The notes under the pieces: model-generated | The model's database searches: none | Seen by the model: only the letters and a program-made list of their open reading frames with translations | What the model was told of the DNA's origin: nothing | NCBI GenBank assembly: GCA_040285745.1 | Contig: JAUFOR010000002.1 | Span: forward strand, 1,178,001-1,242,000 | DNA: 64,000 bases | DNA from: Barthelona sp. PCE | Lineage: Eukaryota | Direction: 5' to 3' | Translations under genes and position numbers: made by a program | Shown here: positions 2,216 through 59,136 of the stretch, piece by piece | Position numbering within the stretch: position 1 is the first letter of the stretch | Layout of the letters: each line of letters opens with the position of its first letter

Positions 2216-2659
2216 CTAAAAAGCTGCACGGTCTTGCTTTTTAATAGGATTAACAATAGAGCCCAGACCTTTAGAAGCGCCAACAAACACTCTTTCGATA
2301 ACATCAATCATATCTTGTTCGTTATCAATGACAAAGTCAATCTTATTCCGATCTCCTTCTTCAGAATCAATCAAAATATGTCTTCCTTCAAAGAAGAACA
2401 TTAGATTATGTGGACTATTGAATTCATACATTAGATTAAAGTCAGAGTTATTAGATATGTCAAAATAACCAATGGCAGCAAATCTACATACTTCTTCACT
2501 GATATTATTGATTATTTCTAGAATTATGTTTGCATCAAAATCGCTAGAGTCTGCAAATAACATCACTACTACTCGCTCCTTTACGTGTTTGATCATGGCA
2601 TCAACGTGGTATGCACAGTCGAGTTCAACAACGTGATTAATATCGTAGTTCACGTCCAT
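2216..2659 (-). CDS. DIM1: U5 snRNP thioredoxin-like protein Dim1/TXNL4A
   Basis: Motifs ERVVV, FNLMYE, MFFFEGRHILID, NKIDF, DMIDVIERVFVGASKGLG match Dim1; length 147 aa. Confidence 0.9.
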   Translation of the reverse strand: MDVNYDINHVVELDCAYHVDAMIKHVKERVVVMLFADSSDFDANIILEIINNISEEVCRFAAIGYFDISNNSDFNLMYEFNSPHNLMFFFEGRHILIDSEEGDRNKIDFVIDNEQDMIDVIERVFVGASKGLGSIVNPIKKQDRAAF

Positions 2660-30223: not shown

Positions 30224-30882
30224 AGGCCCAAAAAGGAGAGCAAAAAAGAATTACAATTCATATTTTTTGCACATATAGTAGTCATATTGGCACTGGTTGT
30301 TGAATTCAAAACGTATCCCGAGATTAATGAACAAATATATCCTTATGATCATCAGAAGGAAAGAATTTGAATCCGCGTAAAAGTTAGCTTTAATTAACTT
30401 TTGGTTAGTTAGATTTCTGCAACTCCTTCCAGTTGAGTTGAAGCATGCGCTTTTCAAAATAGAATCTACAGATATTTAATTTTTGCAGGTTGTCATTTAG
30501 TAGCATTGTAGCAGTTATAATGTTCAGTTTGGGAGTTTGAGATAGATATTTATCGCTGTTTAGATGTCGGTTGGTACATTCATTTATTCTAGAATTGGGA
30601 ATTTAATAATAATTGTTTATTACGTTATCTTACACAGTTTGTTTCAACATTTTCAAGGTCTTATGCACTACTCATGTCGATGAAAAGTTTGAAGTGTTGC
30701 TGAGCTTAAGTGTCAAGATTTTTGATCTTATCTTGTTACTCTGAATATAAGTAAGTAAGTAAATTTTAAACATTAAGTTTTACTTGGCTATTCTCAGAAA
30801 CACTGTATCAAACATATTTTATTATATTGTAATCATATTAGAACGTATTATTTATTTCTACTTTGTTCAAAACTTTTTTCTA

Positions 30883-32046
30883 ATGAAAAAAAAGCAGGAA
30901 ATACTGGTGCAGATGATTGTAATCTGCTTATTTACTGTTCTTGCATGTACAACATCACTTGGGGCTTCATATTCAAAGAAAAGCATTATAGACAGCAGAA
31001 CTAAGGACTTTAGCTCTTTCAAGGACATGAAATTGGGCAAAGATGAAAAGTTGGACATCGTATATATGTGGGTTAACGGTTCTGACCCTGATTTTATCAG
31101 GGAAATTCAAAAGTATCGTCCTTCATCAGAAGAGAGCAATCCACAACGGTTCCAGGACAACTACGAACTGTTCTTCTCACTTCGTAGTTTACATAAGTAT
31201 GTACCGTTTGTTAATAATATTTATATCGTCACTAACGGTCAAGTTCCATTTTGGCTGAATACCAGCGCCCCAAATATCAAGGTTGTGCCGCATAAGGACA
31301 TCTTTACCGACCCAACAGTACTACCAGTCTTTAATAGTCAGGCTATTGAAGGAAATATTCACAATATTGCAAATTTAACAGATTACTATATATTATTGAA
31401 CGATGATATGTTTTTTAGAGGAAAGAATGGTACACCATTGGGATATCATGATTTCTTCACACCAGAAGGGAAAATGAAAGTGTATTTTGAAGTGTATCCG
31501 ATTCCAAATTGGTTATATTATAGAACACATGAGAAATTTTTGAAATATACTATTGATGTTGTGAATGGTGTTGTGCCCAACCCAAGAAGAGAAGTTCCAT
31601 ATACATTGCATACACCTAGGATATATAATAAGCATTGGACAAATTTTTTCCTTTCTTTATCTCCAGAAGAACATGCAAAGGTTTCAGCCAGACGTTTCCG
31701 AAAGAAAGATAATATCGATGTGATTTTGTATCTGAGTCTAATTATGGATAGATTCAGTGAAGCATATATTCCTATTTCGGAAACAAATTACATGGATTAT
31801 GATGAAGTAGCACTTAGGAATTCTGTTGACTATGAAACAGACCTGTTTAAAATGAGGAAGACGGTTGATGAATGGCCTACTAATGGTTTTACAATTCAAG
31901 ATTACGTTGATTATGATAAACCTTTAGATACGATAATTCGTGGACGTAAAGTGATGCGAATGTTTATGAAGTTAGAGTTTTCAGAACCATCTCCTTGGGA
32001 AAATAAGGATTTTACCTTTTCTGCAGAGTTTTGGGAAGGTCAGTAA
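30883..32046 (+). CDS. Stealth-family sugar-1-phosphate transferase with N-terminal anchor
   Basis: CR1 DIVYMWVNGSDP; CR2 RFQDNYELFFSLRSL...FNSQAIE...LNDDMFF; CR3 HTP...RFR; CR4 FTIQD...PSPWE. Confidence 0.93.
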   Translation: MKKKQEILVQMIVICLFTVLACTTSLGASYSKKSIIDSRTKDFSSFKDMKLGKDEKLDIVYMWVNGSDPDFIREIQKYRPSSEESNPQRFQDNYELFFSLRSLHKYVPFVNNIYIVTNGQVPFWLNTSAPNIKVVPHKDIFTDPTVLPVFNSQAIEGNIHNIANLTDYYILLNDDMFFRGKNGTPLGYHDFFTPEGKMKVYFEVYPIPNWLYYRTHEKFLKYTIDVVNGVVPNPRREVPYTLHTPRIYNKHWTNFFLSLSPEEHAKVSARRFRKKDNIDVILYLSLIMDRFSEAYIPISETNYMDYDEVALRNSVDYETDLFKMRKTVDEWPTNGFTIQDYVDYDKPLDTIIRGRKVMRMFMKLEFSEPSPWENKDFTFSAEFWEGQ

Positions 32047-37756: not shown

Positions 37757-38058
37757 TGTACATAAATTTGAGTAAATGATAATTTAATTTTTTTTTCTCT
37801 GTTATTTTACAATATTACCTAATTTCCTCAGCTTTAGGAGTGTTATATGATGAATTACCCACGATATCGGCTACCTTTTTCTATATAATAATTGTATTTG
37901 ATTGTTACTTTCTTTCTCATGTTCTAATTCTTTAATTTTTCTATTACCGTTTCTGTCAGGTATTTCACAAAGGTTATATCAGTTTTTCGCACAGATAGTA
38001 CTTTTCTAATTGTGCAGTAGTGATTTAAAATTTTTTAACCTTTTTATTGTTTATTTTC

Positions 38059-41000
38059 ATGGGCGAAGACATTGATACTGGGGAGTACGACTATAATGAG
38101 GACGAAGAAAGCTTCCAAAATGAAGACACAAGTTATTATGACGAAAATGGTAATTTAGTAGTAGAAAATGGATACTACGATGAATCCGGAAACTATATAG
38201 AGCGTGAAGGGGAATGTGACGATGAAAGCGGCGAGTATGATCCAGAAAATGAAGAGTACGCCGAAGGTGGTGTTGATGACTTTGAAGAAGGTTGTGGAGA
38301 GTATTTAGAGAACAATGATGACGATTGTGATTATATTGATGGCTCAGGTGAAGAAGTTGATGGTGAAGAGGGTTACTACGGTGAAGAAGGAAATTTTGTT
38401 GAGTATGAGGGTAACAATGAGGATGAGGGTTACTATGATGAGGAAGGAAACTTCGTAGAGTATGAGGACGATGCAAATTATGAAAATGAGGGTTATGACA
38501 GTGATTTAGGTTTTTTTTGTGATTCTGAAGTTGATGGTGAAGAATATTGTGAGGATGACCCCGAAATTGTGTATAATGAAGTGCTTCAGCTGATTGGAGA
38601 TGAATTATTTGAGATGTTAGCCGCACCAGATGAATATAATGACGTTACAAAAAATATATCTAGTAGAAAGGAGGATGTGCTTAAATCACAAAAGGGACTT
38701 GAAACTATTAAATCTAATGTAACTAAGATGAAAAAGTTGTTGAAATCTGCTAAGAAAAGAAATGTGAAGCGTGAATTATATCAACAATATTTAATTTCTC
38801 CTGAAGCATATTGTAAGAATATTGATGTTATTGATGGCAATAACAAACGTGCAACGGCAGTGATCAATTGTGTTGCAAAGGCTGTTGATGTTGATAGTTT
38901 AGCAGAAAAGTCAATGGAAGTTATCTCGGTTGATGATTTTGAATCTTTTGATTTATGGTATGAAAAAGCATTTGAACATTTGAAGGTGCTTCTTGCTTCT
39001 CAAAGGAAGCAGCTTAAGTTAGCAAACACGTTTACAGCGAAGTCATTGAACGATGTTACTGGTTATATACAATCATCACAAAAGATCAACGAATATGTTG
39101 AGTATCATTGCAAGTATTCAGCCAACACAGAAGTAGATGAACAAGCGGAAATAGAACGTGTTCTGAAGGATGAACAGGAACGTGCTGTGAAGGAAGCTGA
39201 GGCTGAACGCAGGAAACAAGAGCTGAAGATGCAGGCAATTATTTTTCGTGAGGAGGAGAAAGCTAGAATTCAAGCAGAAGAAGATATGATGCGTGTCCAA
39301 GCTCAGCTTGATGAGGAAAATGAGAAGCAAAGAGAAAAAATGAGACAAGAGCTTGAAGAAGAACGTCAACGTATTATTGATGAGCAGAAACAAGAAGAAG
39401 AAGAGAGTAATGAAGCCTTTGAGAGAGAAAAAGAGCGGTTAAGGCAGCTAGAGGAGAAGAAGAGGATCATGTTTGCGCGCCAGGAGGAATTTAGGCGCCA
39501 GGAAGAAGTCAAAGCTGCTGCAAGATTTGAAGAGGAGCGTAAACAGAGGGAATTAAAGGCAAAACAGGAACAAGAAGAGTTTGAGAGACGTCAAGCTGAG
39601 CTTTTAACCAAGAGAGGTCGTAAGAAGGCAGCTTTAGAGGCTTTCTTAAAGGAGATGCTTGAAAAATTGCTTGAAGCCGGTTTATCTGAAAAGGATGCCC
39701 ATAATCACCTTGGTTGTTACAGCATTCATAACTTTAACCGTGAAGAAATCCTGAGAAATGTAGAAAAAAGAATTGAGAAAATTGAGCAAGAAGAGCAAGA
39801 CCGTTGGGATGATTATCAACAAGATAGCAGCGTATTGAGGCGTATAGACGAAACAGATGCTGTGCCGTGTATCATTCCCAATCGTGATGATTGTTGCACA
39901 GATGTAAGAACAGTGCACAAGTCTGGGTTATTTACACAATCTGTAATGAGCAAGCAACAGATGGCTGATGGTCTGTCATACACACCCTCATTCGAGCGCA
40001 TGTCAGAGGGGGTTTTTGCAAATGTTCCGCTGTTCAATGGAGCACCTTCTATTGTTGATGTTAAACAGACATCGTATTCTGGGAATTGTTTCCTCATAGC
40101 AGGCCTTATCGGTATTGCAGACAGGTATCCCCAGATGATAGTTGACATTTTTGAAGAGGTTGATGAGCCAAACGGTTATTACCGAATTAAGATGTTTGAT
40201 TTAGCTGGTATTCCAATTGTATTAGAATTAGATGATTACTACGCGATACATCCCGAGGGAGGTTCAATCATGAATGATAAAACTGTTGCACGATGGCCTG
40301 AGCTGCTGATGAAGGCGTATTCAGTAATGTTGGGAGGATTTGCTAAGGTTGTTAATGGAGGATCGGTTGGAGACGTTTTTACTGCATTTACAGGAGCAGT
40401 TGGTGATTTCTTTATGTACAGTGATCGATTTTCAGGAAAAAAAAATGCTGAATTATTTAGAATCACGAAAAGATACATGGAAAATGGTGCATTATTAGCA
40501 TCATGTTCAACAGATACGGCACATTTGACTGAAAGTGATGGTTTCGTTCGTGATCACGCATATTCTATTTTAGATATGCAAGTAGTCGATCGTAAAGCAC
40601 TCGTAAAAGTTGCTAATCCCTGGATAACGGGTGGTGAGCTGGATGATTCTGCCAACAAGTACGCAGATGAAAATCTGTCAGCTGACATTCTTCATGCATT
40701 TAATCATACAGCTAATGATCAAGATGGAATGTTTTTAATGAATTTTGATGCCTTCAGGCAGAATCTAGGTTGTATATTTGTGAATCATATTTTGGGAGAT
40801 GGACGTTTTAATGCTACTGTGAAGGATAAATGGGATGAAGAAAATAATGGTGCATTTGATGACTACTTGAAGGTGCCCTATTATGAATTGAAACCAAGAA
40901 AGAAAACTAAGGTTTCAGTTCTCGTTCGGGCAACTAATGAAAGTGAGAATTTAGAGACTGTATCAGTGGTAGTACATGTGTATGATCGTAAGGAAGAATT

Positions 41001-41211
41001 TAAGGCACCATACGATTTCAGTGATCACCAGTTGGATTACAAAGCCTTTTCCAGTGAAGAGAATGGACATTTTTGCCAATTTGAATTCACCGCAGATCCA
41101 AGTCGGAAAAAGTATTTAATTGTTCCAACATCATACGAAAGTGATGTGACCGCGGATTTAACAATCACATTCAGTGCAGACGAAGACTTTACGGTTTATA
41201 AGTGCAAATAA
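38059..41211 (+). CDS. Calpain-like cysteine protease with acidic Tyr repeats and a coiled coil
   Basis: Catalytic motifs KQ...GNCFL, DHAYSIL, VANPW; LDDY, WPELLMKAY; domain III-like YLIVPTSYE. Confidence 0.9.
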   Translation: MGEDIDTGEYDYNEDEESFQNEDTSYYDENGNLVVENGYYDESGNYIEREGECDDESGEYDPENEEYAEGGVDDFEEGCGEYLENNDDDCDYIDGSGEEVDGEEGYYGEEGNFVEYEGNNEDEGYYDEEGNFVEYEDDANYENEGYDSDLGFFCDSEVDGEEYCEDDPEIVYNEVLQLIGDELFEMLAAPDEYNDVTKNISSRKEDVLKSQKGLETIKSNVTKMKKLLKSAKKRNVKRELYQQYLISPEAYCKNIDVIDGNNKRATAVINCVAKAVDVDSLAEKSMEVISVDDFESFDLWYEKAFEHLKVLLASQRKQLKLANTFTAKSLNDVTGYIQSSQKINEYVEYHCKYSANTEVDEQAEIERVLKDEQERAVKEAEAERRKQELKMQAIIFREEEKARIQAEEDMMRVQAQLDEENEKQREKMRQELEEERQRIIDEQKQEEEESNEAFEREKERLRQLEEKKRIMFARQEEFRRQEEVKAAARFEEERKQRELKAKQEQEEFERRQAELLTKRGRKKAALEAFLKEMLEKLLEAGLSEKDAHNHLGCYSIHNFNREEILRNVEKRIEKIEQEEQDRWDDYQQDSSVLRRIDETDAVPCIIPNRDDCCTDVRTVHKSGLFTQSVMSKQQMADGLSYTPSFERMSEGVFANVPLFNGAPSIVDVKQTSYSGNCFLIAGLIGIADRYPQMIVDIFEEVDEPNGYYRIKMFDLAGIPIVLELDDYYAIHPEGGSIMNDKTVARWPELLMKAYSVMLGGFAKVVNGGSVGDVFTAFTGAVGDFFMYSDRFSGKKNAELFRITKRYMENGALLASCSTDTAHLTESDGFVRDHAYSILDMQVVDRKALVKVANPWITGGELDDSANKYADENLSADILHAFNHTANDQDGMFLMNFDAFRQNLGCIFVNHILGDGRFNATVKDKWDEENNGAFDDYLKVPYYELKPRKKTKVSVLVRATNESENLETVSVVVHVYDRKEEFKAPYDFSDHQLDYKAFSSEENGHFCQFEFTADPSRKKYLIVPTSYESDVTADLTITFSADEDFTVYKCK
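38130..38470 (+). repeat. Coding repeats (G)YY(D/G)ExGN in the calpain N-terminus
   Basis: YYDENGN, GYYDESGN, GYYGEEGNFVEYE, GYYDEEGNFVEYE; the last two are near-identical at DNA level with a 57-nt period. Confidence 0.8.
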
Positions 41212-41505
41212 GTTTGCGAAACGCCCTGATCAGGAAGATCCTGCAATTGATTTTGAGCGAAGAATGGAATAGAACGTATGCGGGTGTATTTTGATTTCTC
41301 ACCATTTACAGTTTCCTATTTATTTTATTGTATTATTAGCAATTGAAATACTACTATTTTTCAGATATGGACTTCCAAACTCTGAAGAAGGTAGCCCGTA
41401 TGCGGCACCATATCCGATCTGAGATCTCTGTAAAGCATATTTTTACATTCCTTTTAACTACCCGTTAGGATGAGACTCTGGAATAAAATCAAATTACATT
41501 AACAT

Positions 41506-42747
41506 TTACTTGGCAAGGTTGGCCTCGATCTTCTCGGGGACCTGCTCGAAGGCAGAAAGAAGAGAGCAGGCGGCCATGACGAAAGGCTTGTTCTTGGCCT
41601 CACTATACATACCAACACGTTGGGCAGCGAAGACGGGGGCTTCCCACTCACCCTTCTTACAGTTGGCAGAGTCCTTGCCTACCTCACCCTTGTACTCGAC
41701 ATCGGCGGGAAGACAGTGCATACCAATAGCACCGGGCTTAGCGAGGGCCCAGCGCTCCTCGGTAAGGGTCCAATCAGTGTGGTTGTTGTTGCGCTCAATG
41801 GCAATCTTTTCAAGCTCCTCGAGGTTGGCGGTACCAGCACGGTACTCCTCACCACGGGCACGGGCAAGATCCTGGGCTACCCAAGACTTAACGTAGACAA
41901 TGTCAGCATCGACAAGAGCGGAATCCATATCATAGGTGATGGTGAACTTACCATCGGACTCCTTGGTCTGCTTCTCGGCAACCTCAATGACGTTGTCAAG
42001 GAGAAGGAAATCCTCGGAAGGGATGGCGAGGTGCATGTCAACACCATAACGAGTCAGGAGACCGATAATACCCTGGGGGACAGAAAGAGGCTTTCCGTAT
42101 GAGGCGGAGTAGCCCCATGACATACAGAACTTCTTGCCACGGAGATTCTCGAGGGAGCCAAAGTGGTGAACACAGTGCATGAGATCTGAAAGTGCCTGGG
42201 TGTAGTGATCGACATCAGATTGCAAATTGATAAAGATGGGCTTTTTGTCGAGAATACTGCGGTTGGCAAACTTGTTGCTGAATCCGTACTCGAGGGCACT
42301 GATAACCTCTTCCATATATGTTTCGCCGGAGCCTAAATAGATGTCATCCCTGATTCCATAAACACGGCAGAGGAACGATAAACAATTGACCGTTTCGATT
42401 AAAGACTCACCGTGGGCGGCCTGACTTTTCTTGCTGTCATACTCATACAGACCTAATCCAACGAGTGCCATGCTTGTGGCGAAGGCAGACTTAGTTCTAG
42501 TTGATGCGTCTCTGAACTCATAGACAGCAGAACCACCCTTAAAAAGTTTAATGGCATCAGTACGCTCCTGCTCGTAAAGAGACTGGATGAAATCAGCCAT
42601 AACAACAATGGCTTCAATATCATCATAAGAATGATCCCATGTGCGAAGATGATGACGACCAAATAAATTATAGTTCAAAGCCTTCAGCTTCTCAATGTAT
42701 TGTTCATTGGTAGGATGAACAAAAGTGTCGGGGTTATAATCGGACAT
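41506..42747 (-). CDS. ygeW: Knotted carbamoyltransferase, YgeW family (bacterial type)
   Basis: FRDASTRT, SQAAHGE, GIRDDIYLGSG, NLQSDVDHYTQ, WGYSASYGKPLSVPQG, ADIVYVKSW and MHCLPAD closely follow YgeW and differ from OTCase/ATCase. Confidence 0.9.
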   Translation of the reverse strand: MSDYNPDTFVHPTNEQYIEKLKALNYNLFGRHHLRTWDHSYDDIEAIVVMADFIQSLYEQERTDAIKLFKGGSAVYEFRDASTRTKSAFATSMALVGLGLYEYDSKKSQAAHGESLIETVNCLSFLCRVYGIRDDIYLGSGETYMEEVISALEYGFSNKFANRSILDKKPIFINLQSDVDHYTQALSDLMHCVHHFGSLENLRGKKFCMSWGYSASYGKPLSVPQGIIGLLTRYGVDMHLAIPSEDFLLLDNVIEVAEKQTKESDGKFTITYDMDSALVDADIVYVKSWVAQDLARARGEEYRAGTANLEELEKIAIERNNNHTDWTLTEERWALAKPGAIGMHCLPADVEYKGEVGKDSANCKKGEWEAPVFAAQRVGMYSEAKNKPFVMAACSLLSAFEQVPEKIEANLAK

Positions 42748-43272
42748 ATTAGATTGGGGAAGAGAGTAAGAAAAAGTTAAGTAATAAAAAAGTGCCATAA
42801 CATTGAATAAAACACATCAGACCAGTGTACATCATAGAAAATTGTCGTATTGCACAATATTTGACATGTTAAAACAAATATTAAGCTTTATATAGCGATA
42901 TTTTTTATAAAAAAGTGACCCTATTCAATTTTTCTTATATATTGTGAAGTTTTCGACAACTTTATTCACAGTATATCGCTATTTATGTGTCCAAATTACG
43001 TTATATTGTCATTGTGCAAATATTATTCTAGTTGTAGTTTTTCGTTGATTCAGGTGTTAATCTTAGAAATTCTGGAAATGTACAATTTTCTTCTGATCAT
43101 TAGTACCAAATTTTTAAGTGTTTCAATGTTTTTGATGTTGAAAAAAGAATTTCCTCATTTTTGAGTTTATGTTGCTTTATAAGACGTGATGTGGTGTGTA
43201 GATGTGCATGTCTCACATTGTTTATATTCAGAAGCTCATTTAATGGTGTTTTTGACTTTCTTACCTAATTCG

Positions 43273-44196
43273 ATGTCAACTGATAACTCACCAGTTACAG
43301 AAGATCCCAACAAACGTTTAGTTGAAAGTTTGGTTGGCATGACTGTTGAGTCAACCTCAACATCTGAAGCCATTTCTGAATTGGCAGATGCATTTTTAGC
43401 ATCAAAGAATATAGTGTTTTGCACAGGGGCAGGTCTCAGCGTTGCTTCTGGTATCAGCTTATACCGTTCGGATTCTGAACCGAATGCTATTTGGAACAAT
43501 TATGTTGAAACAACAGGCAGATTGGAGACCATGCGTAAAATGGGTGTTACTAAGTGGTTCAACGAATTTCTGATGGATAGCCACTATAATGATAGTTTCC
43601 TTAACGCTATTCCAAACGCAGGACATGATGCTATTACCGAATTGACAAGAATCTTTCCAAACACAAGTGTTATTACTCAAAACGTTGATAACTTGCATAA
43701 AAAGTCCGGTATGGAGTATTCTCAATTGTACGAGGTTCACGGGAACTTGACTGGTTGGAGATGTCTTAACCGTAATTGTAAGCATCACAAAAAAGAAGTT
43801 CTGCGCCTTAATCTTGATGACTATATCATTCCAGGTTCATCAGACCCATTAAGGTACGACCCTAAATGTCCATTATGTGATTCGCATGCTACTCCGAACG
43901 TTCTCTGGTTTGACATGAGCTACGGTGACATTTATATGGCTGGGGGTCACACTTTCGATGATATTGTTCGTTTAATAAGCGCTGCTGATGTCGTATGTTT
44001 TGTTGGAACTTCAAACTCTGTGGGAATTACAGGTCATATAGAACATATTGTGTATGATCAGAATAAGCTGGCTTTTGATTTTAACATTAGTAGTGAGACA
44101 ACTCTTGTACGATCAAAGCTTATTCAGGGGCCTGCAGCTGAAACACTTCCTGCTTTAGTGAATTTGCTGAAAGAAAGAGCTCCTGACCGTTTCTAA
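43273..44196 (+). CDS. Sir2-family NAD-dependent deacylase
   Basis: TGAGLSVASGI, PNAGH, ITQNVDNLH, EVHG, Zn-binding cysteines, PNVLWF, VGTS. Confidence 0.92.
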   Translation: MSTDNSPVTEDPNKRLVESLVGMTVESTSTSEAISELADAFLASKNIVFCTGAGLSVASGISLYRSDSEPNAIWNNYVETTGRLETMRKMGVTKWFNEFLMDSHYNDSFLNAIPNAGHDAITELTRIFPNTSVITQNVDNLHKKSGMEYSQLYEVHGNLTGWRCLNRNCKHHKKEVLRLNLDDYIIPGSSDPLRYDPKCPLCDSHATPNVLWFDMSYGDIYMAGGHTFDDIVRLISAADVVCFVGTSNSVGITGHIEHIVYDQNKLAFDFNISSETTLVRSKLIQGPAAETLPALVNLLKERAPDRF

Positions 44197-44225: not shown

Positions 44226-45425
44226 TTAAACACGGCCACAAATCAGACCGAGAACAACAGCTAAAATGGTTCCAATAACTGTAATCCAACTAAACAGTGA
44301 TATGTTGCCAGCACAACCCTGACGGGAATGGGCAGCATTGATATCGAATCTACTCATGTAATTTCTTGTATGAGTTGATCCTTCAATCATATCCTGTAAA
44401 TAACGGCCATCGAATACTAAAACAGTACCATTGTTCATGTTGGCAAACACACCGCCCTGAACGCTAGATGATCGGGAAACATTGTCTTCAAGAACGGCGC
44501 TTTCAAGCATGAAACTATCATAGTAAACTCTTCCATTTGAACTGGATGCGAAAACTCTCAAAGCTTCATCAACAAAAATTCCACAACCTTCTTGCAAACT
44601 GGTTCCTCTGCTCATGGTATATTCAAAGTTGGGATTCCATGTTATGACACTTGAACCATCTTTCAGCGCACCACTAATAAAATCAATGGGAACAACCTTA
44701 ACTTCACCGCTACAATAAGTACGATAAAACAAAAACTGGCCATCACAAGAAACATCAACTGCGACAACACCTCTATACGTGGAAGAGCATGAATCATCAG
44801 TTACTGTATAAGAAGCACAACTGTTATCTCGGCATGCAATGATACGTCCTGCACTGCTGGATCCACCTGCTGCAATAAATGTAATGTCATTATCAATGGC
44901 ATAGGCTATATCATTAGGCCACAGATTGTTCAATACACCTTCAATACTTACAGAATGACCTGTCAATGTTCCAGTTTTAACACTCAGTCTCTTGTACGTG
45001 GCGTCACCATAGTCTGTGCCTGCAACAGTGTTGACATCGATGAAATGCATAATATCATTGCGATCAATGTGCATTGCGCTGACACTTCGTAGAGAACCAG
45101 TTCCAACAGCGTTCATCTCAGTTGTAGGGAATGGTACACCGCCGAAATTGGAGCTTGATGTTGTGTTGGTAATCTTCGCAATTGTTGCTGGAATACTTTC
45201 AACAGATGAAGGAGTTCCATATGTTCTTGGAATAGTAACATAGAGGTTGCTGTTCGAATCGAACTGTCCACTGCTGATGTATGCGAAACGATAACCGTCA
45301 GAGTTATACGTAGCTGATGATAACTCACCAAAGTCAATCTTTTCAACAGACATCTTCAAATATGCTTCAAGACAAAATCCAACGGATACAAGACATAGTA
45401 AGGCAAAAATATTTCTAAAACGCAT
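44226..45425 (-). CDS. Secreted or membrane-anchored beta-propeller, yellow/major royal jelly-like (tentative)
   Basis: Signal peptide; LYVTIPR...PATIA, SVSAMHID...HFID, NDIA, VAVD...LFY; C-terminal hydrophobic anchor. Confidence 0.55.
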   Translation of the reverse strand: MRFRNIFALLCLVSVGFCLEAYLKMSVEKIDFGELSSATYNSDGYRFAYISSGQFDSNSNLYVTIPRTYGTPSSVESIPATIAKITNTTSSSNFGGVPFPTTEMNAVGTGSLRSVSAMHIDRNDIMHFIDVNTVAGTDYGDATYKRLSVKTGTLTGHSVSIEGVLNNLWPNDIAYAIDNDITFIAAGGSSSAGRIIACRDNSCASYTVTDDSCSSTYRGVVAVDVSCDGQFLFYRTYCSGEVKVVPIDFISGALKDGSSVITWNPNFEYTMSRGTSLQEGCGIFVDEALRVFASSSNGRVYYDSFMLESAVLEDNVSRSSSVQGGVFANMNNGTVLVFDGRYLQDMIEGSTHTRNYMSRFDINAAHSRQGCAGNISLFSWITVIGTILAVVLGLICGRV

Positions 45426-47361: not shown

Positions 47362-48609
47362 TTACAAACTTTCCTCGAGCATTGCAATTGTTTTTAATTG
47401 TAATCTTGCAATAAAATCATTTTCTGCCTTTAAATCTAGTTCAATTTCGTTTTCATATGAAGCAAGCTTTTCAATTAACTGTAATAAACGTTCTCTAGAT
47501 GAAATAACAATCTCAATCTCAGATTCCTCCATGCATTCAGACTGTATATCAATGGTTTCTTCCTCAGAAGATGGATTCTCATCACTTTCCTCATCCTCTA
47601 TAACCGGTGCAGTGCTCAATGATCGTTGCATCTCAACAAACTCCTTAGCATCAATCATGAGCTGTTCCTGTATCTCAGGCTTGTCTGTGACACCAAATGT
47701 GAGTGGTGCAGCAGCAAATATGGCATCCATGCTTGTTCCAGGATCGCTGTCCTCACTTTCTTCACTTTCTTCAGATGAATTCTCATCATATACATCATCG
47801 TATACATCATCATCTTCGTATTCGACAGCATAGTCAACTTCCTCATCTTCCATAGCATCTTCTTGTTCCACAGCATCTTCTTGTTCGGCTGATTCTTCAA
47901 TTAATTCTTCTTTGGGTCCCGCCTGACTGTATGTAACGAATTCCTGCGCTTCCTTCAAAAGCTGATCCCTGATCTCTGGTACTTCCGTTCCGCCAAATGT
48001 TAGAGGGGCTGCAGCTAAGATTGTACTCATATCCAACCCCGGATCACTTTCTTCACTTTCTTCTTCCTCGTCATATACTTCCTCATATTCATCCTCATAT
48101 TCAATAAATTCATCTTCAACTTCATCATCGATGGGATCTTCTACTTCATAGAATGATTCAGAAACTTCCACTTCATTGAATGGTTTGGCGATTTGGCCTT
48201 CTGCCAAGTCAATTAAATTGGTATTTGAGTTGGTTGTTACACTAACTTCCGTTTCCGGACTTTCTACAATTGTAACTTTGATCTCTTCAGCTTCAGGTAT
48301 TTCAACTTCTTCAACCTCTTCAACAACGTGAACATCTGCTTCCATTTGCTCTTCAATGATTTCAATAGGTGATTCATGCTCAGAACTGTGAACTGAAATA
48401 ACATCCACTTCTTCTTTTGGTGTTTCTTGAATTACAACCGGCTCAATGACATCCAGCCTATCTGATTCAATGTCTGACAATATCAACTCAGTGTCAATAT
48501 CCCTTTTGTGATGTGATTGATGGTTTTTTGATACAGAAGAAACGTCAAAACCGCTTGATGTCTTCATCAGCAGGTCCCCAAGATCGGATTCAATCTCTAA
48601 CTCACTCAT
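47362..48609 (-). CDS. Highly acidic protein with an internal 100-aa duplication
   Basis: Two copies of SDPG...AAAPLTFG...PEI..QL...A.EFV, 300 nt apart. Confidence 0.7.
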   Translation of the reverse strand: MSELEIESDLGDLLMKTSSGFDVSSVSKNHQSHHKRDIDTELILSDIESDRLDVIEPVVIQETPKEEVDVISVHSSEHESPIEIIEEQMEADVHVVEEVEEVEIPEAEEIKVTIVESPETEVSVTTNSNTNLIDLAEGQIAKPFNEVEVSESFYEVEDPIDDEVEDEFIEYEDEYEEVYDEEEESEESDPGLDMSTILAAAPLTFGGTEVPEIRDQLLKEAQEFVTYSQAGPKEELIEESAEQEDAVEQEDAMEDEEVDYAVEYEDDDVYDDVYDENSSEESEESEDSDPGTSMDAIFAAAPLTFGVTDKPEIQEQLMIDAKEFVEMQRSLSTAPVIEDEESDENPSSEEETIDIQSECMEESEIEIVISSRERLLQLIEKLASYENEIELDLKAENDFIARLQLKTIAMLEESL

Positions 48610-54226: not shown

Positions 54227-55225
54227 ATGGGTTCTTTCACAAATTTTTTGTTAATTAGAGAGTCTGAAGATAGCGGGGTTGAATGGAAGGTTGTTTTTTC
54301 ATACATTTTTGTTTTGTCGAGTTATTTCCTCATGTTTGATCCATTCACACAATTCAGTATTGTCATACCACTCATAATGATTACCCTTCTTGTTACAGCC
54401 ATTTACTTGAAGTCCGGACAGTATATTCGCAACTTTGAGAATGAAGGAGAAATGCGCGAATCTCTTTATATTACTACACCTTCAATTATCACCAAGTTGC
54501 TGAACAAGATTGGCCTTGGTGATGAAAGTGAAGGTATTTTCCGTTGGGAACCAACTAAACCAGCAATTGTAATGTTTGCTTTTTGTAACCCTGCACTAAT
54601 TTTATTTTTCATTTCATTCCGTCACTTATGGCACATGCGACTGTCTGGCGTCATGAGATTTAGTGAATATACATTTTTATTTGGGTTTGCATTCTTTTTT
54701 GGTGTAATAGTTTTACTTTTACATTCTAAATTAAGTTCTACTATTACAGCTACTAACTTCCAATATGATTCGTGCGTCGATATTGAAAGAAATTACTACA
54801 TTGAACAGTTAAATGATAAAGAAAGAGATGTTATCAGATTGAATTCAAATGTTCGTAAATTATCACAATTTATTAAACGTTTAAAGCTCAAGGACAGAGT
54901 TATTGAGGAAGAAGGTGAAGAAGAATTTCCAGTTGTTGAAGAAAAAAGAATAATTACTAAAACGCCTGCTGATCGTAATAGATTCGGTCCTACATTGGTT
55001 GCTACAGCTAAACAACGCAAACAAAGGCCCCGTAAAGTGAAGCATGTTGAGCAAGAGGAAGTTGTTGAAGAAGAAGACAGTATGGAAGTTGAAGAAGTAA
55101 TTGATTCACTCGATACGAACATTCCCAGTAAGACAGAGGATTCTCCTTACAACCGTCTGCCAAAAGGCTTTTCAATGATGAAGAAGTCTCAAAATAAGCC
55201 AAGATTTGGAATTTTCAAAAAATAG
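54227..55225 (+). CDS. Membrane protein with coiled coil, possibly Nur1/Mug154 (DUF2418)-like
   Basis: TM segments; Y..F and WEP...MFAFCNP pattern; basic/acidic tail. The start could be 54332. Confidence 0.45.
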   Translation: MGSFTNFLLIRESEDSGVEWKVVFSYIFVLSSYFLMFDPFTQFSIVIPLIMITLLVTAIYLKSGQYIRNFENEGEMRESLYITTPSIITKLLNKIGLGDESEGIFRWEPTKPAIVMFAFCNPALILFFISFRHLWHMRLSGVMRFSEYTFLFGFAFFFGVIVLLLHSKLSSTITATNFQYDSCVDIERNYYIEQLNDKERDVIRLNSNVRKLSQFIKRLKLKDRVIEEEGEEEFPVVEEKRIITKTPADRNRFGPTLVATAKQRKQRPRKVKHVEQEEVVEEEDSMEVEEVIDSLDTNIPSKTEDSPYNRLPKGFSMMKKSQNKPRFGIFKK

Positions 55226-55230
55226 AATCG

Positions 55231-58200
55231 GGATTCAAATTGTTTCCAGTCTAAAATTTCAGTGCAGACAGTAAAGAAATCCATTTAAATTGCAGAACAT
55301 ATAAGGTTGGTATAAATTTCGTTTGAGGGTGAGTCATAAAAAAATTGCGCAAATGATTTTTGATCTTTTATCACTTTTCTACACAGCTTATTAATCGATT
55401 TTTGATGGAAGATTTACCTAAACTAACTGGTAATTACATTAACTTTCTCAAAATAGACTTTTCAAGCTATATCCAAGATTATTATGCTAATAATCTTCTG
55501 ACAAAAGAAAAGATAGATGTTGACCGTTGCTCATCTATTTTATACAATGCTTTGACACGATTGGGTACGTCTGGGCTTGAACCAATTCAAAACGTTATTC
55601 TCACAGTTCTGACATCTCAGCGTAAAAATATCAACCGTAATACCTCCAAACCACAGATTCCTAATGACTCATGTTGTATTTTTGCAACTCAAAAACGTGC
55701 TTTTGAAAATGCTTGTGGATATTTTCACATCGATCCAGATGGTATTACAGAACTTCAGGATATGGTTGAAATGTTTGTCTCTACTGTCAAAGACAACATA
55801 ATAGCATTTGGAGAATTTTGTTATGATGTGGATAATAACCGAATCAAATATATTGCAAAGTATCCTGCAACCATGGGTATCTTTCGTTTATGTGACCGTT
55901 TTAGCTGCTGTGGAGAATATGTAATGCCCGAACTACGTGAAACATTTGAAAATTTTTTAAAGCAGGGTTCTAAAGGAAACTTGATGAAAGAGGATTTCAC
56001 TCCATTTTTCACAAATTATAGGCGAACAATGCACACCGCAGGTAAGAAGATAATTCATTTTTACCCTTTGAGTTCAGAAATTTCGGTTTGTAAGGAAACA
56101 TACAGGCAGATTTATCTTGTACCAAAGAATATTACCCCTAAGCTTATTCCGGAAGGGTGCCCCGATTCGTGGCCGAAGAAGAATTCAATTTCAATCAAAG
56201 GTATAACAACTTATGGGGAAAATCAAGAGCAAGCCCAATACCTAACAGTGTTAATGTGGTTATCAACATGTAAGTATTCCCAAGTAACACCACCTACATA
56301 TGTTACTGAAATACTTGCATCATTAAATGATAGTAAGATGAATCTTCTCAAATTCAGGAACTCATCTGCAAAATTTTGTGCTGACTATCTGAGCTTTTCA
56401 AAGTTGCAAACTGGGGTATTAAATTTATCTCCGTCAAACAGACAAACAACGTTTTTAAAATATCCTTATGTTTTGGAGCAAGCCCACCATGTAATTAAAA
56501 AGTCTATTTGCAACCATTTGAGAAGAAGTTCCAAAAAAGCAGTTCTAATGATCGACAAGTGGTCGACAAACAAAGAAAAAAATAGTGTGCTTGCAATTCT
56601 CTTGAAGGTACCTCATGAGATTGATGATCTGACTCTACCTGAATGGGTGCATAGTGGAGTGTTTTTGTGGCAGGTTTCAGATAAAAAGCAACATATTATC
56701 AAGAAGCGGTCAGTTGATTTTGGAAATATGATTTCTGAACGTTTGAGGGGCAAGTGGATTTTACTAGACCTTTACACAGAGATTGGAAGAAAATCTTATG
56801 ATGTTTTTTTTGCATTGCTCACTACTTTGCTTCGTTTTCGTCTTCATGAAATACCTATTTCATTTCAAGCTGACCGTGGAAAAGTGGAGCGTAAAGCACT
56901 TTCACTTTTATTGGAGCATTTAGAAGGTAAATCAACAAAAGATACCATTAAGTTTATTGAGAACAAGATAGATTCCATTGCCTGGCAATTTACAACCGAT
57001 GAAGAGTTGTTCTGTGAGTTCTTCACTGCTCATGACTTTTATTTTCATATGAAACGACTTAACTCAACTTTTGAAGATCTCCGCAATTCATATTTGAAGA
57101 AGATGTTTTACAATTGGTATCAAAATGATTGTTATTCTACAACTTCAGCACACGGTTTAAAAATGTATTCGTGTGCATTTTATATGTTATCAAATTTTCT
57201 AAGAACTTTCTTTCCTACTTTACAGCAAACTATCAAAGTTCATCAAAGAGGTTGTGTTCTTGGTAAGTTTAACAAGTTGTTTGATACATTTTTCAATCAA
57301 TTTAAGTTAAGAGTAGAAAATTTCGTTTTTCTTCACAAAGATAATATGTTTTTAGAGGATGTGTTTGAATTATTCAAGAAAGAATATTGTTTTGCATTAG
57401 AAAAAGACGGAATTAATTGCTCAATGATGGTTACGAAGAAAATGTTCAAAACTTTGATGAAAGGAGGTGTGTCTAACAACATAGTTGAGAATTACAGTGA
57501 GAGGCATTTCGATATTGCATTCGAAGCACTTCAGGAAGATGAAAACGTGATGAATGAATTCGAGGAATGGAGAAAATCCCGTGTTGTTAGTTTTACTTTC
57601 GAAGATATCAAAGATCATTTCAAACAATGTTTTGTTAAGCTTAATGAATTGTATCACGAAGGATTGGCCTTTGTGAGGTCATGGAGACATCTTTACGGTA
57701 AAGCAATGGTTGTTTTCAAAATTCTTTTTGAGGAAGCCTATGGAAAGGGTGATGCGTATTTAAGAGATAACAGCGCCAAGGCATTTGCCATATGTGAGAT
57801 TTTCAAGACCATAAAGATATTTATTACCACAGAAGGGTGTGATCATCATAATATCATCAGGGATATGTTTGAAAATGAAGAGATTTCTCTATTGCTGTTC
57901 TTTTGTGATGTTATTGAGGGTTTGAAGGCTATAATGACCACTATAGAAGCTGATGACTATCGCATGGTGGATGCAGGAAAGCTTATTGCAAGGTTTGTGT
58001 TGATGCTCAGAAATAAGAATTTAATTGAATACGTTGACATTGAGACTGCGACAACCATCAAAGGTGAATGTAGATATAAGGGCAACATGAAAGCATACTT
58101 TGAAGATACAGTGCCTAAAAAAGTTCTAACCAGAAAAGATGAAGAAAGACAGCCTGACACAGATAGCGACAATGAGAGAAGAATGTCAAGCGGATATGAT

Positions 58201-59136
58201 CATAAAATAGGAGCATGTGCTGAATGCTATAACGACAAAGATTTTGCTATTGAGTACAATTACAATCCACCCCACTTTAGCTCTGACACTGATTTAGAGA
58301 CTATTGACAGGCTCAATAGGGTTAGAAATTTGTTTAATTCATGTTTAATGCACTGTATTAGCAGATGTATGAATGAATATGACTTTACAGGAACGATTGT
58401 GTCTCCCATACCTTATTCTTTCTTTTACATTGGTTCTAAGCTTTCAAATGTTATGAAAGAAAGTATGTTATGGAATTCGTCGAGAGTATATGATGTTCCG
58501 GCAACAACTTGCCCTGTTGAACGTTTTTTTTCTCAGGCTAGCATTAGAGAGATGAAATCTGGACATTCTTCCCATTTTTCAACTCGTGTTATGAAGATGA
58601 AGCTGCATCGCTCACTTCCATACATTCTTATTAGAGATGATGTATCCACCACTGTTTTAGATGAATTTGTTGACGTTAATAGATTCAAATGGGAGCTCTT
58701 GCAGCGACGCAGAAGCGAAAAAGAGGAAGAAGATGTTGATCAACCTCCTGTTAAACTGCAAAGAAAGGAAGATTTTGATGATTTTGAAGAAGATGTTTCT
58801 GACATTTCAGATTCTTAAAATGATGATTCAATTTGTGAAGATGATAATATTTTTGGAATATACACCTATTCAGAATCCGAATAGTCTACTCTTAAATAGT
58901 ATTTTTGAATAATTGTATAAATGAATATTTTTGACGTTCTAATTATGACTATGTATTATGCACATGTGTGCTATTTTATGTATATTGACAGAAAACACGG
59001 GAGTAAACATATTATTATATTTTTTTGATAAGTAGAAATTTTCTCACTTTCCCTCTATTTTTCACATTCAATGTAAGGCGCTGGTGCTCCTCCCTAAATT
59101 TTGAATTTATTACCTTCTACGGCAAAATTTGAATCC
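55231..59136 (+). mobile_element. Putative hAT-like DNA transposon bounded by an 11-bp inverted repeat
   Basis: GGATTCAAATT (55231-41) and AATTTGAATCC (59126-36) flank the transposase; no exact 8-bp target-site duplication (TSD). Confidence 0.4.
55405..58818 (+). CDS. hAT-superfamily DDE transposase-like protein (~1137 aa)
   Basis: First Asp in LMIDKWST, second Asp in QADRG, possible xxxH motif (TSAH), C-terminal VPATTCPVERFFS with the catalytic Glu. Confidence 0.8.
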   Translation: MEDLPKLTGNYINFLKIDFSSYIQDYYANNLLTKEKIDVDRCSSILYNALTRLGTSGLEPIQNVILTVLTSQRKNINRNTSKPQIPNDSCCIFATQKRAFENACGYFHIDPDGITELQDMVEMFVSTVKDNIIAFGEFCYDVDNNRIKYIAKYPATMGIFRLCDRFSCCGEYVMPELRETFENFLKQGSKGNLMKEDFTPFFTNYRRTMHTAGKKIIHFYPLSSEISVCKETYRQIYLVPKNITPKLIPEGCPDSWPKKNSISIKGITTYGENQEQAQYLTVLMWLSTCKYSQVTPPTYVTEILASLNDSKMNLLKFRNSSAKFCADYLSFSKLQTGVLNLSPSNRQTTFLKYPYVLEQAHHVIKKSICNHLRRSSKKAVLMIDKWSTNKEKNSVLAILLKVPHEIDDLTLPEWVHSGVFLWQVSDKKQHIIKKRSVDFGNMISERLRGKWILLDLYTEIGRKSYDVFFALLTTLLRFRLHEIPISFQADRGKVERKALSLLLEHLEGKSTKDTIKFIENKIDSIAWQFTTDEELFCEFFTAHDFYFHMKRLNSTFEDLRNSYLKKMFYNWYQNDCYSTTSAHGLKMYSCAFYMLSNFLRTFFPTLQQTIKVHQRGCVLGKFNKLFDTFFNQFKLRVENFVFLHKDNMFLEDVFELFKKEYCFALEKDGINCSMMVTKKMFKTLMKGGVSNNIVENYSERHFDIAFEALQEDENVMNEFEEWRKSRVVSFTFEDIKDHFKQCFVKLNELYHEGLAFVRSWRHLYGKAMVVFKILFEEAYGKGDAYLRDNSAKAFAICEIFKTIKIFITTEGCDHHNIIRDMFENEEISLLLFFCDVIEGLKAIMTTIEADDYRMVDAGKLIARFVLMLRNKNLIEYVDIETATTIKGECRYKGNMKAYFEDTVPKKVLTRKDEERQPDTDSDNERRMSSGYDHKIGACAECYNDKDFAIEYNYNPPHFSSDTDLETIDRLNRVRNLFNSCLMHCISRCMNEYDFTGTIVSPIPYSFFYIGSKLSNVMKESMLWNSSRVYDVPATTCPVERFFSQASIREMKSGHSSHFSTRVMKMKLHRSLPYILIRDDVSTTVLDEFVDVNRFKWELLQRRRSEKEEEDVDQPPVKLQRKEDFDDFEEDVSDISDS

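What the first reader, a model, noticed from the sequence alone, without database searches (positions are those of the whole stretch)
41506..42747. Bacterial YgeW-type knotted carbamoyltransferase in a eukaryotic chromosome: possible laterally acquired anaerobic purine catabolism
Seen: an intact ORF with YgeW-specific motifs (GIRDD.Y.G.G, YGKPLSVPQG, KSW, HCLPAD) between a calpain and a sirtuin. Its 3' two-thirds are visibly GC-richer than the flanks with many C/G-ending codons, consistent with high expression or foreign origin. Known: ygeW belongs to the gut-anaerobe uric acid/purine degradation cluster (ygeW, ygeX, ygeY, hyuA, ssnA, carbamate kinase), where carbamoyl phosphate can yield ATP. 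Inference: this protist may get ATP from purine or ureide breakdown by feeding a carbamate kinase. I am not aware of this route being established in eukaryotes.
Basis: partly seen in the sequence, partly recalled or inferred. Interest (0 to 1): 0.85.

Follow-up and report, generated by a model that had tools for sequence, protein, structure and literature searches.

The report
Bacterial-type YgeW carbamoyltransferase in a protist
A compact eukaryotic chromosome carries one intact, host-adapted gene of bacterial origin for a YgeW-type carbamoyltransferase, an enzyme gut bacteria use to make ATP from uric acid; a Trichomonas precedent is in print, and whether the rest of the pathway exists here is unknown.

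Summary
Window 41506-42747 (minus strand) is an intact 413-codon ORF between a calpain gene and a Sir2 gene, with all four quoted motifs and a GC3-rich 3' two-thirds.

By HMM score, fold and phylogeny it belongs to the YgeW clade and not to OTCase or ATCase. It is very divergent:
- 42-48% identity to every bacterial YgeW sampled.
- Scores below both NCBIfam equivalog cut-offs.
- The only member of its 50%-identity cluster among about 15 billion proteins.
- A 6-8-fold long tree branch, with the donor unresolved.

All 18 published ligand-binding residues of E. coli YgeW are kept. Only the Pro of HPxQ is changed, to Tyr.

The codon bias is a preference for pyrimidine-ending codons, not plain GC enrichment. 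The flanks are AT-rich spacers like the neighbours'. This argues for a fixed, probably well-expressed lateral transfer and against contamination.

The metabolic inference is untested. None of the 43 other window ORFs scanned is a pathway partner, no whole genome is held and no sequencing run was listed.

The idea is not new for eukaryotes. A 2015 review already reports a YgeW-type enzyme in Trichomonas vaginalis and proposes ATP generation with carbamate kinase.

Verdict: a real, moderately interesting new member of a known kind.

The parts
41506..42747 (-). Coding sequence of a 413-aa YgeW-clade carbamoyltransferase (stop TAA at 41506-41508)
   Evidence: ORF and translation. NCBIfam YgeW 374.9 and 372.9 bits. 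Pfam OTCace_N plus OTCace. PDB 2yfk 325 bits and 3q98 307 bits. Model pLDDT 88.7, with TM 0.85-0.87 (query-normalised) to the YgeW structures.
42748..42798 (-). Possible 17-codon 5' extension from an upstream in-frame ATG (MALFYYLTFSYSLPQSN); more likely 5' leader
   Evidence: One search lists the 430-aa frame. The stretch is T-rich like the leaders of neighbouring genes. Bacterial homologues align only from residue 9-18 of the 413-aa form. The true start is not determined.
42493..42504 (-). Codons for S82-T83-R84-T85, the SxRT carbamoyl-phosphate motif (STRTK here, STRTR in bacteria)
   Evidence: Alignments. Mapping to E. coli S71-T74.
42196..42207 (-). Codons for H181-Y182-T183-Q184: the HPxQ motif with Pro replaced by Tyr
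   Evidence: Pro is 100% conserved in 196 bacterial YgeW, and the window protein has Tyr. His and Gln are kept.
41701..41718 (-). Codons for H344-C-L-P-A-D349 (HxLP motif plus Asp)
42265..42279 (-). Lineage-specific 5-residue insertion (S157-A161) relative to all bacterial YgeW aligned
   Evidence: Alignments.
41674..41697 (-). Lineage-specific 8-residue insertion (E351-K358) just after HCLPAD. This is the lowest-confidence part of the model (10-residue block means 55-77).
   Evidence: Alignments. pLDDT blocks.
41212..41505 (.). AT-rich spacer between the calpain stop and the YgeW-like stop (convergent genes)
   Evidence: GC 0.36-0.37. No bacterial flanking gene and no flanking repeat of note.
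42799..43185 (.). AT-rich divergent spacer between the YgeW-like gene and the Sir2 gene
   Evidence: GC 0.27-0.32. Pyrimidine-rich leader like other genes of the window.
38047..41211 (+). Neighbour: calpain-family cysteine protease (context, eukaryotic)
   Evidence: Pfam Peptidase_C2 81 bits.
43186..44196 (+). Neighbour: Sir2-family deacetylase (context)
   Evidence: Pfam SIR2 89 bits.

Best explanation
A bacterial ygeW gene was transferred long ago into the nuclear genome of an intron-poor, fast-evolving eukaryote. There it became a stand-alone, host-adapted gene.

The product keeps the YgeW fold, the carbamoyl-phosphate site and the putative second-substrate pocket. So it most likely still catalyses the YgeW reaction, which is phosphorolysis of a ureido group of 2,3-diureidopropanoate or a very similar N-carbamoyl-diaminopropionate compound. 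That reaction yields carbamoyl phosphate, which a carbamate kinase encoded elsewhere would convert to ATP, CO2 and NH3.

Shown here: family, fold, conserved ligand residues, eukaryotic context and codon adaptation. Inferred: substrate, reaction direction, coupling to carbamate kinase, expression, and the source of the substrate (the organism's own purine breakdown or intermediates from bacteria).
For: Family:
- YgeW HMMs score 375 and 373 bits, against 98 for the next family.
- The two solved YgeW proteins are the best PDB matches by sequence (325 and 307 bits; AOTCase 68).
- They are also the best by fold (TM 0.85-0.87 normalised by query and 0.92-0.93 by target, rmsd 2.1-2.4; AOTCase 0.64-0.67). 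The model has pLDDT 88.7 and pTM 0.91. The Atlas's own model gave TM 0.92 to a YgeW cluster.
- In the trees, window protein plus bacterial YgeW form a clade with 97/85 support (43-row careful tree). The branch to OTCase/ATCase has 99-100 support.

Active site:
- All 18 published E. coli ligand residues are identical in the window protein. These are S71, T72, R73, T74, Q98, R122, D124, Q160, H165, Q168, S200, K203, K270, C330, L331, D334, E344 and the Lys of WKP. The list is from PMC4581275.

Ancestral function:
- Two 2025 papers show that E. coli YgeW cleaves a ureido group of the diureidopropanoate made by HyuA, and that with YqeA it yields ATP.
- Two of the bacterial YgeW genes that lie nearest the window protein by path in the 76-row tree sit in such clusters. 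L080 has SsnA-like, YgfK, YgeY and Xdh-like genes. L001 has YgeY and carbamate kinase.

Integration and adaptation:
- The gene lies on a record whose longest contig is 2,128,580 bases.
- All 43 other ORFs scanned are eukaryote-type or unassigned.
- The spacers are AT-rich.
- In four-fold codon families of codons 101-413, third bases are A10, C72, G3, T56. The window background is A .33, C .14, G .12, T .41. GCG, CCG, GGG, GTG, CGG, CGA, CTA and ATA are each used 0 times.
Against: - The scores are below both curated equivalog cut-offs (453 and 500).
- 28 of 131 columns that are at least 97% conserved in 196 bacterial YgeW are changed. These include the Pro of HPxQ (to Tyr), SPSYGKP to SASYGKP, YPKSW to YVKSW and GEV to GEW next to the putative substrate residue E344. 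There are also two insertions. The specificity may therefore have shifted.
- No partner enzyme is among the 43 other window ORFs, unlike the bacterial clusters.
- Carbamate kinase, expression, and the organism's lifestyle and identity are all untested.
- The two 2025 papers disagree on which ureido group YgeW removes.
- No reference set of highly expressed host genes was available, so 'codon adaptation' rests on the shape of the bias alone.
Confidence: 0.5

Rival explanations
1. The gene is a real, expressed transfer, but the enzyme has changed substrate. It would act on another ureido compound such as citrulline, carbamoylputrescine, albizziin or ureidopropionate-like compounds. It may serve as a catabolic transcarbamylase in an arginine-deiminase-like route without any purine pathway.
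For: - The end branch is very long: 2.7-3.6 against a median of 0.4.
- 28 of 131 near-invariant bacterial positions are changed, several beside ligand residues: P182Y, P215A, P286V and V368W.
- An 8-residue insertion follows HCLPAD.
- The scores are below the equivalog cut-offs.
- The gene stands alone, with no pathway neighbour.
Against: - All 8 residues proposed for the second substrate (Q160, K270, D124, S200, K203, L331, D334, E344) are unchanged.
- The host as a whole evolves fast. Its PRP16-like helicase has no relative above 38% identity. The long branch therefore need not mean a new function.
Confidence: 0.2
2. The enzyme works in the synthetic direction. It would carbamoylate a diaminopropionate-type amine with carbamoyl phosphate, for example to make a ureido amino acid, and would not yield energy.
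For: The reaction is reversible, and phosphorolysis is the thermodynamically less favourable direction (PMC6022934 passages). Related transcarbamylases for diaminopropionate carbamoylation exist (PMC4581275).
Against: All characterised YgeW proteins are catabolic and linked to carbamate kinase. No source of carbamoyl phosphate is known for this organism.
Confidence: 0.07
3. The gene is a decaying or functionless remnant of a transfer.
For: High divergence, the Pro-to-Tyr change in a family-wide motif, and no partners nearby.
Against: - The 413-codon frame is intact.
- 103 of 131 near-invariant positions and all ligand residues are kept.
- The codon bias is strong and directional.
- The fold is predicted with confidence.
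Confidence: 0.05
4. The gene is an assembly chimera or bacterial contamination stitched into a eukaryotic contig.
For: The gene is the GC3 outlier of the window. Read support could not be checked.
Against: - The insert would have to be exactly one ORF with junctions inside AT-rich spacers of 294 and about 440 bases, and no bacterial neighbour gene.
- No bacterium among 592 genome loci or the 120 best hits (out of 5.8 billion clusters searched) is more than 48% identical.
- G-ending four-fold codons are almost absent, which is unlike a GC-rich bacterial gene.
- The leader is pyrimidine-rich like its neighbours'.
Confidence: 0.03

Closest known systems
E. coli YgeW (PDB 3Q98) and Enterococcus faecalis YgeW-type transcarbamylase (PDB 2YFK)
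   Same: - Same fold: TM 0.85-0.87 normalised by query and 0.92-0.93 by target.
- The same SxRT and HxLP motifs.
- All 18 published ligand residues.
- The extra N- and C-terminal helices are modelled.
   Different: - 42.6% identity to E. coli YgeW.
- HPTQ is HYTQ.
- Insertions of 5 and 8 residues.
- Scores are below the NCBIfam cut-offs.
- The gene is solitary among eukaryotic genes. In E. coli, ygeW lies with dpaL (ygeX), ygeY, hyuA, arcC (yqeA), ygfK, ssnA and xdh.
Trichomonas vaginalis YgeW-type transcarbamylase (XP_001326968, and a second split copy), as listed in PMC4581275
   Same: It is a eukaryote carrying a YgeW-type gene. The copy rebuilt from the two fragments is stated to be 417 aa, against 413 here. 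The review proposes a catabolic role with carbamate kinase.
   Different: - I could not obtain that sequence, so whether the two share one transfer is untested.
- No hit carries a eukaryote's name or exceeds 48% identity.
- The window protein is alone in its 50% cluster.
- The window's PRP16-like helicase has no relative above 38% identity and no listed hit carrying a trichomonad's name.
Catabolic ornithine transcarbamylase plus carbamate kinase of the arginine deiminase pathway in metamonads and other protists
   Same: The same logic of substrate-level phosphorylation from a ureido group. It is known in Parabasalia, diplomonads and others (PMC5052871 passages).
   Different: It is a different, unknotted branch of the superfamily. 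The window protein scores only 76 bits on the OTCase model and is separated from OTCase by a branch with 99-100 support.
N-acetyl- and N-succinyl-ornithine transcarbamylases (knotted, anabolic)
   Same: They are the next best family by HMM (98 bits) and by fold (TM 0.64-0.67).
   Different: They are much more distant. They lack the YgeW-specific extended 240's loop and terminal helices (PMC4581275).

Membership tests
YgeW (NCBIfam equivalogs NF005538 / TIGR03316) | Whole-protein score at or above the curated cut-off | tested here: not met
   374.9 against 453, and 372.9 against 500. These are still by far the best families (next is 98 bits). I therefore file it as a divergent member of the YgeW clade, not as an equivalog.
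YgeW clade of the transcarbamylase superfamily | Groups with YgeW sequences to the exclusion of OTCase and ATCase in a phylogeny | tested here: met
   - 76-row quick tree: the YgeW side is split from OTCase/ATCase with SH-aLRT 100.
- 43-row careful tree: window plus 34 bacterial YgeW has 97/85 support, and with P0149 100/99.
- The place inside the clade is unresolved. It is sister to all (91/63) or nested. The AU test does not reject nesting with L001, L007, L053, L062 and L080 (p 0.242).
Transcarbamylase superfamily | SxRT, HPxQ and HxLP carbamoyl-phosphate motifs (PMC4581275) | tested here: inconclusive
   STRT and HCLP are present. HPxQ reads HYTQ. His and Gln, the ligand residues, are kept, but the Pro, 100% conserved in 196 bacterial YgeW, is Tyr.
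YgeW | Putative second-substrate residues Q160, K270, D124, S200, K203, L331, D334, E344 (E. coli numbering) | tested here: met
   All 8 are identical after alignment to the E. coli protein of locus L098. The list comes from the review. These residues are proposed, not proven by a substrate complex.
YgeW | YgeW-type fold: knotted C-terminal domain, extra terminal helices, extended 240's loop | tested here: inconclusive
   Overall fold match to 2yfk and 3q98 is TM 0.85-0.87 (query) and 0.92-0.93 (target). The helices H14-23, H292-321 and H387-412 are modelled. The knot itself was not computed.
YgeW / 2,8-dioxopurine (reductive uric acid) pathway | Gene neighbourhood with carbamate kinase, YgeX, YgeY, HyuA, SsnA, YgfK and Xdh | tested here: not met
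   0 of 43 other window ORFs hit such families. Clustering is not expected in a eukaryote, and the rest of the genome could not be searched.
YgeW | Phosphorolysis of 2,3-diureidopropanoate to carbamoyl phosphate | not testable with these tools
   The activity is known only for the E. coli enzyme.

The most novel reading that the evidence does not exclude
This orphan-lineage eukaryote runs all or the lower part of the reductive 2,8-dioxopurine uric-acid pathway. It would use either a set of dispersed, laterally acquired genes or bacterial intermediates taken up from its surroundings, and it would gain ATP through carbamoyl phosphate. That would be the first eukaryotic instance of a pathway so far described only in bacteria. 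Alternatively, the much-altered enzyme has acquired a ureido substrate not yet known for any transcarbamylase.
Probability: 0.2. Interest if true: 0.75.

Novelty: new member of a known kind. Interest (0 to 1): 0.45.

Why it matters
YgeW was assigned a function only in 2025, as the ATP-yielding step of anaerobic uric acid breakdown in gut bacteria. A conserved, codon-adapted copy in a eukaryote suggests that this energy-yielding chemistry has crossed domains at least once, and perhaps twice counting Trichomonas.

It also gives a concrete protein to test for purine- or ureide-based ATP generation in protists. Because animals lack the enzyme, a parasite's copy would also be a possible drug target, as the 2015 review already argued for Trichomonas.

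The extreme divergence with a fully conserved ligand set makes it a useful natural variant for learning which positions of YgeW are truly required.

Tried and rejected
- **Whole genome:** not held, so partner genes could not be searched.
- **Sequencing runs:** none was listed for 40800-43400, and no RNA holder was listed.
- **Pattern scans with the single protein:** no relative found in genome contigs (27 pattern matches, 0 relatives) or in metagenome contigs (37 matches, 0 relatives).
- **Host lineage:**
  - The PRP16-like helicase has only 32-38% identity to animals, plants and fungi alike.
  - Rfam found 0 families and ARAGORN 0 tRNAs.
  - Upstream regions show only T-rich leaders.
  - The lineage stays unidentified. 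I ran no further search on it.
- **Cluster look-ups:** for 20 hits they gave names only for an Olsenella/Enorma YgeW cluster and two JGI labels, none eukaryotic.
- **Trichomonas sequence:** the Trichomonas YgeW-type sequence could not be retrieved, so its relation to this gene is open.
- **Literature:**
  - The 2011 structure paper (PMC3115391) is not held.
  - The search 'knotted carbamoyltransferase' gave 3 irrelevant papers.
  - 'dioxopurine' plus 'protist' gave 0 papers.
  - Neither 2025 pathway paper mentions eukaryotes in its text. Their supplements were not seen and might list non-bacterial hits.
- **Flanking repeats:** only short chance-level matches in 41000-43400, so there is no sign of a mobile element.
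- **Rejected explanation:** 'foreign base composition' as the cause of the high GC3.
- **Rejected as evidence:** the Fe-hydrogenase-like ORF as a sign of anaerobiosis. By my reading from recall, its motifs are Nar1/NARF-type.
Full report
**1. The observation**

The minus strand of the window carries an open frame at 41506-42747, 413 codons ending in TAA. An in-frame ATG 51 bases upstream (42798) would add 17 residues. That stretch is T-rich like the leaders of neighbouring genes, and bacterial homologues align only from residue 9-18. I therefore take 42747 as the likelier start, but it is not proven.

The left neighbour (38047-41211, +) is a calpain and the right neighbour (43186-44196, +) is a Sir2 protein.

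The gene is the compositional outlier of the window. Its GC3 is 0.547, against 0.26-0.44 for the other 42 ORFs of at least 150 aa, while GC at positions 1 and 2 (0.455) is within their range. GC3 rises from 0.34-0.42 in the first 100 codons to 0.52-0.64 afterwards.

**2. The surroundings are eukaryotic**

I scanned 44 window ORFs against Pfam. Besides the carbamoyltransferase they include:
- calpain, Sir2, a PH plus zf-UBP protein
- an XPD/Rad3-type DEAD_2 helicase and a DEAH helicase of PRP16 type
- an Rrp6-like exonuclease with HRDC, a Patched/sterol-sensing protein, RINGv
- UCH (peptidase C12), SKIP/SNW, DIM1, Erv26, an AMPK-beta CBM, GLTP, WD40 proteins and Dus

None is a carbamate kinase, amidohydrolase of SsnA/HyuA type, M20 peptidase, PLP ammonia-lyase or xanthine-dehydrogenase-type protein.

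Genes are densely packed on both strands, with no intron evident. TAA is the commonest stop, so the code is standard. The record holding the protein has a longest contig of 2,128,580 bases.

The PRP16-like helicase has no relative above 38% identity among 5.8 billion clusters, and its hits are a mix of animals, plants and fungi. The host is therefore a fast-evolving lineage without sequenced close kin. I could not name it and did not pursue it further.

The single hydrogenase-like ORF (4609-5811) reads as Nar1/NARF-like. That reading of its motifs is from recall. Nothing in the window speaks to anaerobiosis.

**3. What the protein is**

- *HMMs:* NCBIfam's two YgeW equivalog models are the best hits (374.9 and 372.9 bits over nearly full length). 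N-acetylornithine carbamoyltransferase follows at 98 bits and OTCase at 76. Both YgeW scores are under the curated cut-offs of 453 and 500.
- *Solved structures by sequence:* the two YgeW-type proteins lead (2yfk 325 bits, 3q98 307 bits), and the next is AOTCase at 68.
- *Fold:* an AlphaFold model built on 24 sequences has pLDDT 88.7 and pTM 0.91. It matches 2yfk and 3q98 at TM 0.85-0.87 (query-normalised), 0.92-0.93 (target-normalised) and rmsd 2.1-2.4. AOTCase reaches 0.64-0.67. The Atlas's own model agrees.

**4. How far it is from bacterial YgeW**

- The 120 best hits in 5.8 billion clusters are 42-48% identical. Every hit whose name gives an organism is bacterial.
- In the exhaustive search of 1.84 billion representatives the protein is its own 50% representative. 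The best other entry scores 274 bits.
- A scan of one genome per prokaryote species found 592 relatives among 595 pattern matches. The best 80 are 41-47% identical and span many phyla.
- I aligned it with 196 bacterial YgeW: 78 of the 80 loci, leaving out L002 and L078 whose ORFs are truncated, plus the 118 hits of 380-450 aa. Bacterial pairs are 53-100% identical (median 64%). The window protein is 42-48% identical to all of them.
- Of 131 columns at least 97% conserved in bacteria, 103 are kept and 28 are changed. The changes include R86K (STRTR to STRTK), P182Y (HPTQ to HYTQ), A212G and P215A (WAYSPSYGKP to WGYSASYGKP), P286V (YPKSW to YVKSW), Y342G and V368W.
- There are two insertions: 5 residues at 157-161 and 8 residues at 351-358.

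**5. The active site**

I fetched an E. coli ygeW locus and aligned its protein to the window protein (42.6% identity). I then mapped the residues that the 2015 review lists for E. coli YgeW.

The annotated E. coli protein is one residue shorter at the N-terminus than the published numbering. With that offset, every published letter matched. The exception is the review's 'K363', which I read as the Lys of the WKP motif (364 by the same offset).

All 18 ligand residues are identical in the window protein (S82, T83, R84, T85, Q109, R133, D135, Q176, H181, Q184, S216, K219, K287, C345, L346, D349, E367, K387). Only the non-ligand Pro of HPxQ differs.

**6. Phylogeny**

*76-row quick tree.* The rows were:
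- the window protein
- 48 bacterial YgeW (all non-Bacillota loci and every third Bacillota locus)
- 16 divergent representatives
- 7 OTCases and 4 ATCases (10 of these 11 confirmed by NCBIfam; L092 was labelled by me from its Pfam score and its grouping)

This tree puts the window protein inside the YgeW side, which is split from OTCase/ATCase with support 100. There it sits in a weakly supported group (90-91, not starred) with Bdellovibrionota, Cloacimonadota, Bacteroidota and unclassified sequences.

*43-row careful tree.* This used a hand-picked subset: 34 bacterial YgeW, P0149, 4 OTCases and 3 ATCases. It makes the window protein sister to all 34 bacterial YgeW (91/63). The joint clade has 97/85 support.

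An AU test does not reject the nested alternative (p 0.242). The end branch is 2.7-3.6 changes per column against a median of 0.4, so long-branch effects are likely and the donor cannot be named.

**7. Contaminant or integrated gene**

- The gene is exactly one ORF between AT-rich spacers of 294 and about 440 bases, with no bacterial neighbour and no flanking repeat of note.
- Its codon bias is not general GC enrichment. In four-fold families of codons 101-413 the third bases are A10, C72, G3, T56, against a window background of A .33, C .14, G .12, T .41.
- GCG, CCG, GGG, GTG, CGG, CGA, CTA and ATA are never used, while AAG, GAG and CAG are preferred.
- That shape, C/T-ending in four-fold boxes and G-ending in two-fold purine boxes, is the usual mark of translational selection in AT-rich protists. 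This point is general knowledge and was not tested against this organism's own highly expressed genes.
- With no bacterium above 48% identity, the transfer is old or its donor unsampled. Either way, the gene has been reshaped in the host.
- Unexplained: the first 100 codons escape the bias. The rest-minus-first-100 difference is 0.24, against a mean of -0.006 and a maximum of 0.145 in 28 other genes.

**8. Function**

Two 2025 papers (passages read) reconstituted the reductive 2,8-dioxopurine pathway of uric acid degradation. In it, YgeW phosphorolyses one ureido group of the 2,3-diureidopropanoate made by HyuA. With the carbamate kinase YqeA and ADP, this yields ATP. The papers disagree on whether the 2- or the 3-ureido group is removed.

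Two of the bacterial genes nearest the window protein by path in the 76-row tree lie in such clusters. L080 has SsnA-like, YgfK, YgeY, YgeW, two PLP-type enzymes and an Xdh-like gene. L001 has YgeY, carbamate kinase and YgeW. The E. coli locus shows the classical set. Metagenomic fusions of YgeW with an M20 domain and with an amidohydrolase also exist.

Because the ligand set is intact, the most likely activity here is the same or a closely related phosphorolysis feeding a carbamate kinase. Carbamate kinase is widespread in anaerobic and other protists (PMC5052871, passages), but I could not look for it in this genome. The many changes beside the pocket leave a real chance of altered specificity.

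**9. Comparison with what is known, and novelty**

A eukaryotic YgeW-type gene is already in print. PMC4581275 (passages read) lists Trichomonas vaginalis XP_001326968 as a YgeW-type transcarbamylase and a second, split copy of 417 aa. It proposes that such enzymes use ureido compounds with carbamate kinase to make ATP.

Only that review cites the accession in the held library. Three papers hold both 'YgeW' and 'Trichomonas'. No held paper links 'dioxopurine' and 'protist', and the two pathway papers do not discuss eukaryotes. Supplements were not seen.

The class of finding is therefore known. What is new is:
- a second host, apparently unrelated to sequenced trichomonads;
- the extreme divergence with a conserved ligand set;
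- the fact that the enzyme's bacterial function is now defined, which makes the eukaryotic question testable.

**10. Verdict**

- The identity and lateral origin are well supported.
- The metabolic story is plausible but untested.
- Novelty is that of a new member of a known kind.
- Interest is moderate.

Noticed in passing
window 14291-15004 (-): A 237-aa ORF hits Pfam Pyr_excise (pyrimidine dimer DNA glycosylase; by recall the phage T4 endonuclease V type) at 42 bits. It may be a second gene of foreign origin in this eukaryotic window.
   Followed up: no
window 30784-32046 (+): An ORF with Stealth CR1 and CR2 regions (124 and 40 bits). By recall, this family is known from bacterial capsule phosphotransferases and from eukaryotic GlcNAc-1-phosphotransferase.
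   Followed up: no
window 4609-5811 (-): The Fe-hydrogenase large-subunit-like protein (Pfam 129 bits) has CLACSGC, SYCPGW and ACPHGCLNGGGQ motifs. From recall, I read these as Nar1/NARF type (cytosolic Fe-S assembly) and not as a true hydrogenase.
   Followed up: partly
window 59167-61482 (+), 2216-2659 (-), 6962-7516 (+): Spliceosome parts are encoded (PRP16-like DEAH helicase, DIM1, SKIP/SNW), although none of the 44 ORFs shows an evident intron. The helicase has no relative above 38% identity in 5.8 billion clusters.
   Followed up: partly
window 7734-8804 (+) / 8770-10506 (-); also 12453/12470, 17274/17294, 25442/25473: Convergent genes overlap by 35 bases or end 17-30 bases apart. This is an extremely compact eukaryotic genome.
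   Followed up: no
window 41506-42747 (-), codons 1-100 versus 101-413: The strong C/T-ending codon bias starts only after about codon 100. No other window gene shows such a step. The cause is unknown.
   Followed up: partly
proteins P0121 (963 aa) and P0126 (773 aa) from metagenomes: There are apparent natural fusions of YgeW with an M20 peptidase dimerisation domain (YgeY-like) and with an Amidohydro_1 domain (HyuA/SsnA-like). They could be read-through gene calls.
   Followed up: no
window 44226-45425 (-), 47362-48609 (-), 54227-55225 (+), 55360-58818 (+), and others: 15 of the 44 ORFs scanned have no Pfam family at the thresholds used. This is consistent with an orphan lineage.
   Followed up: no
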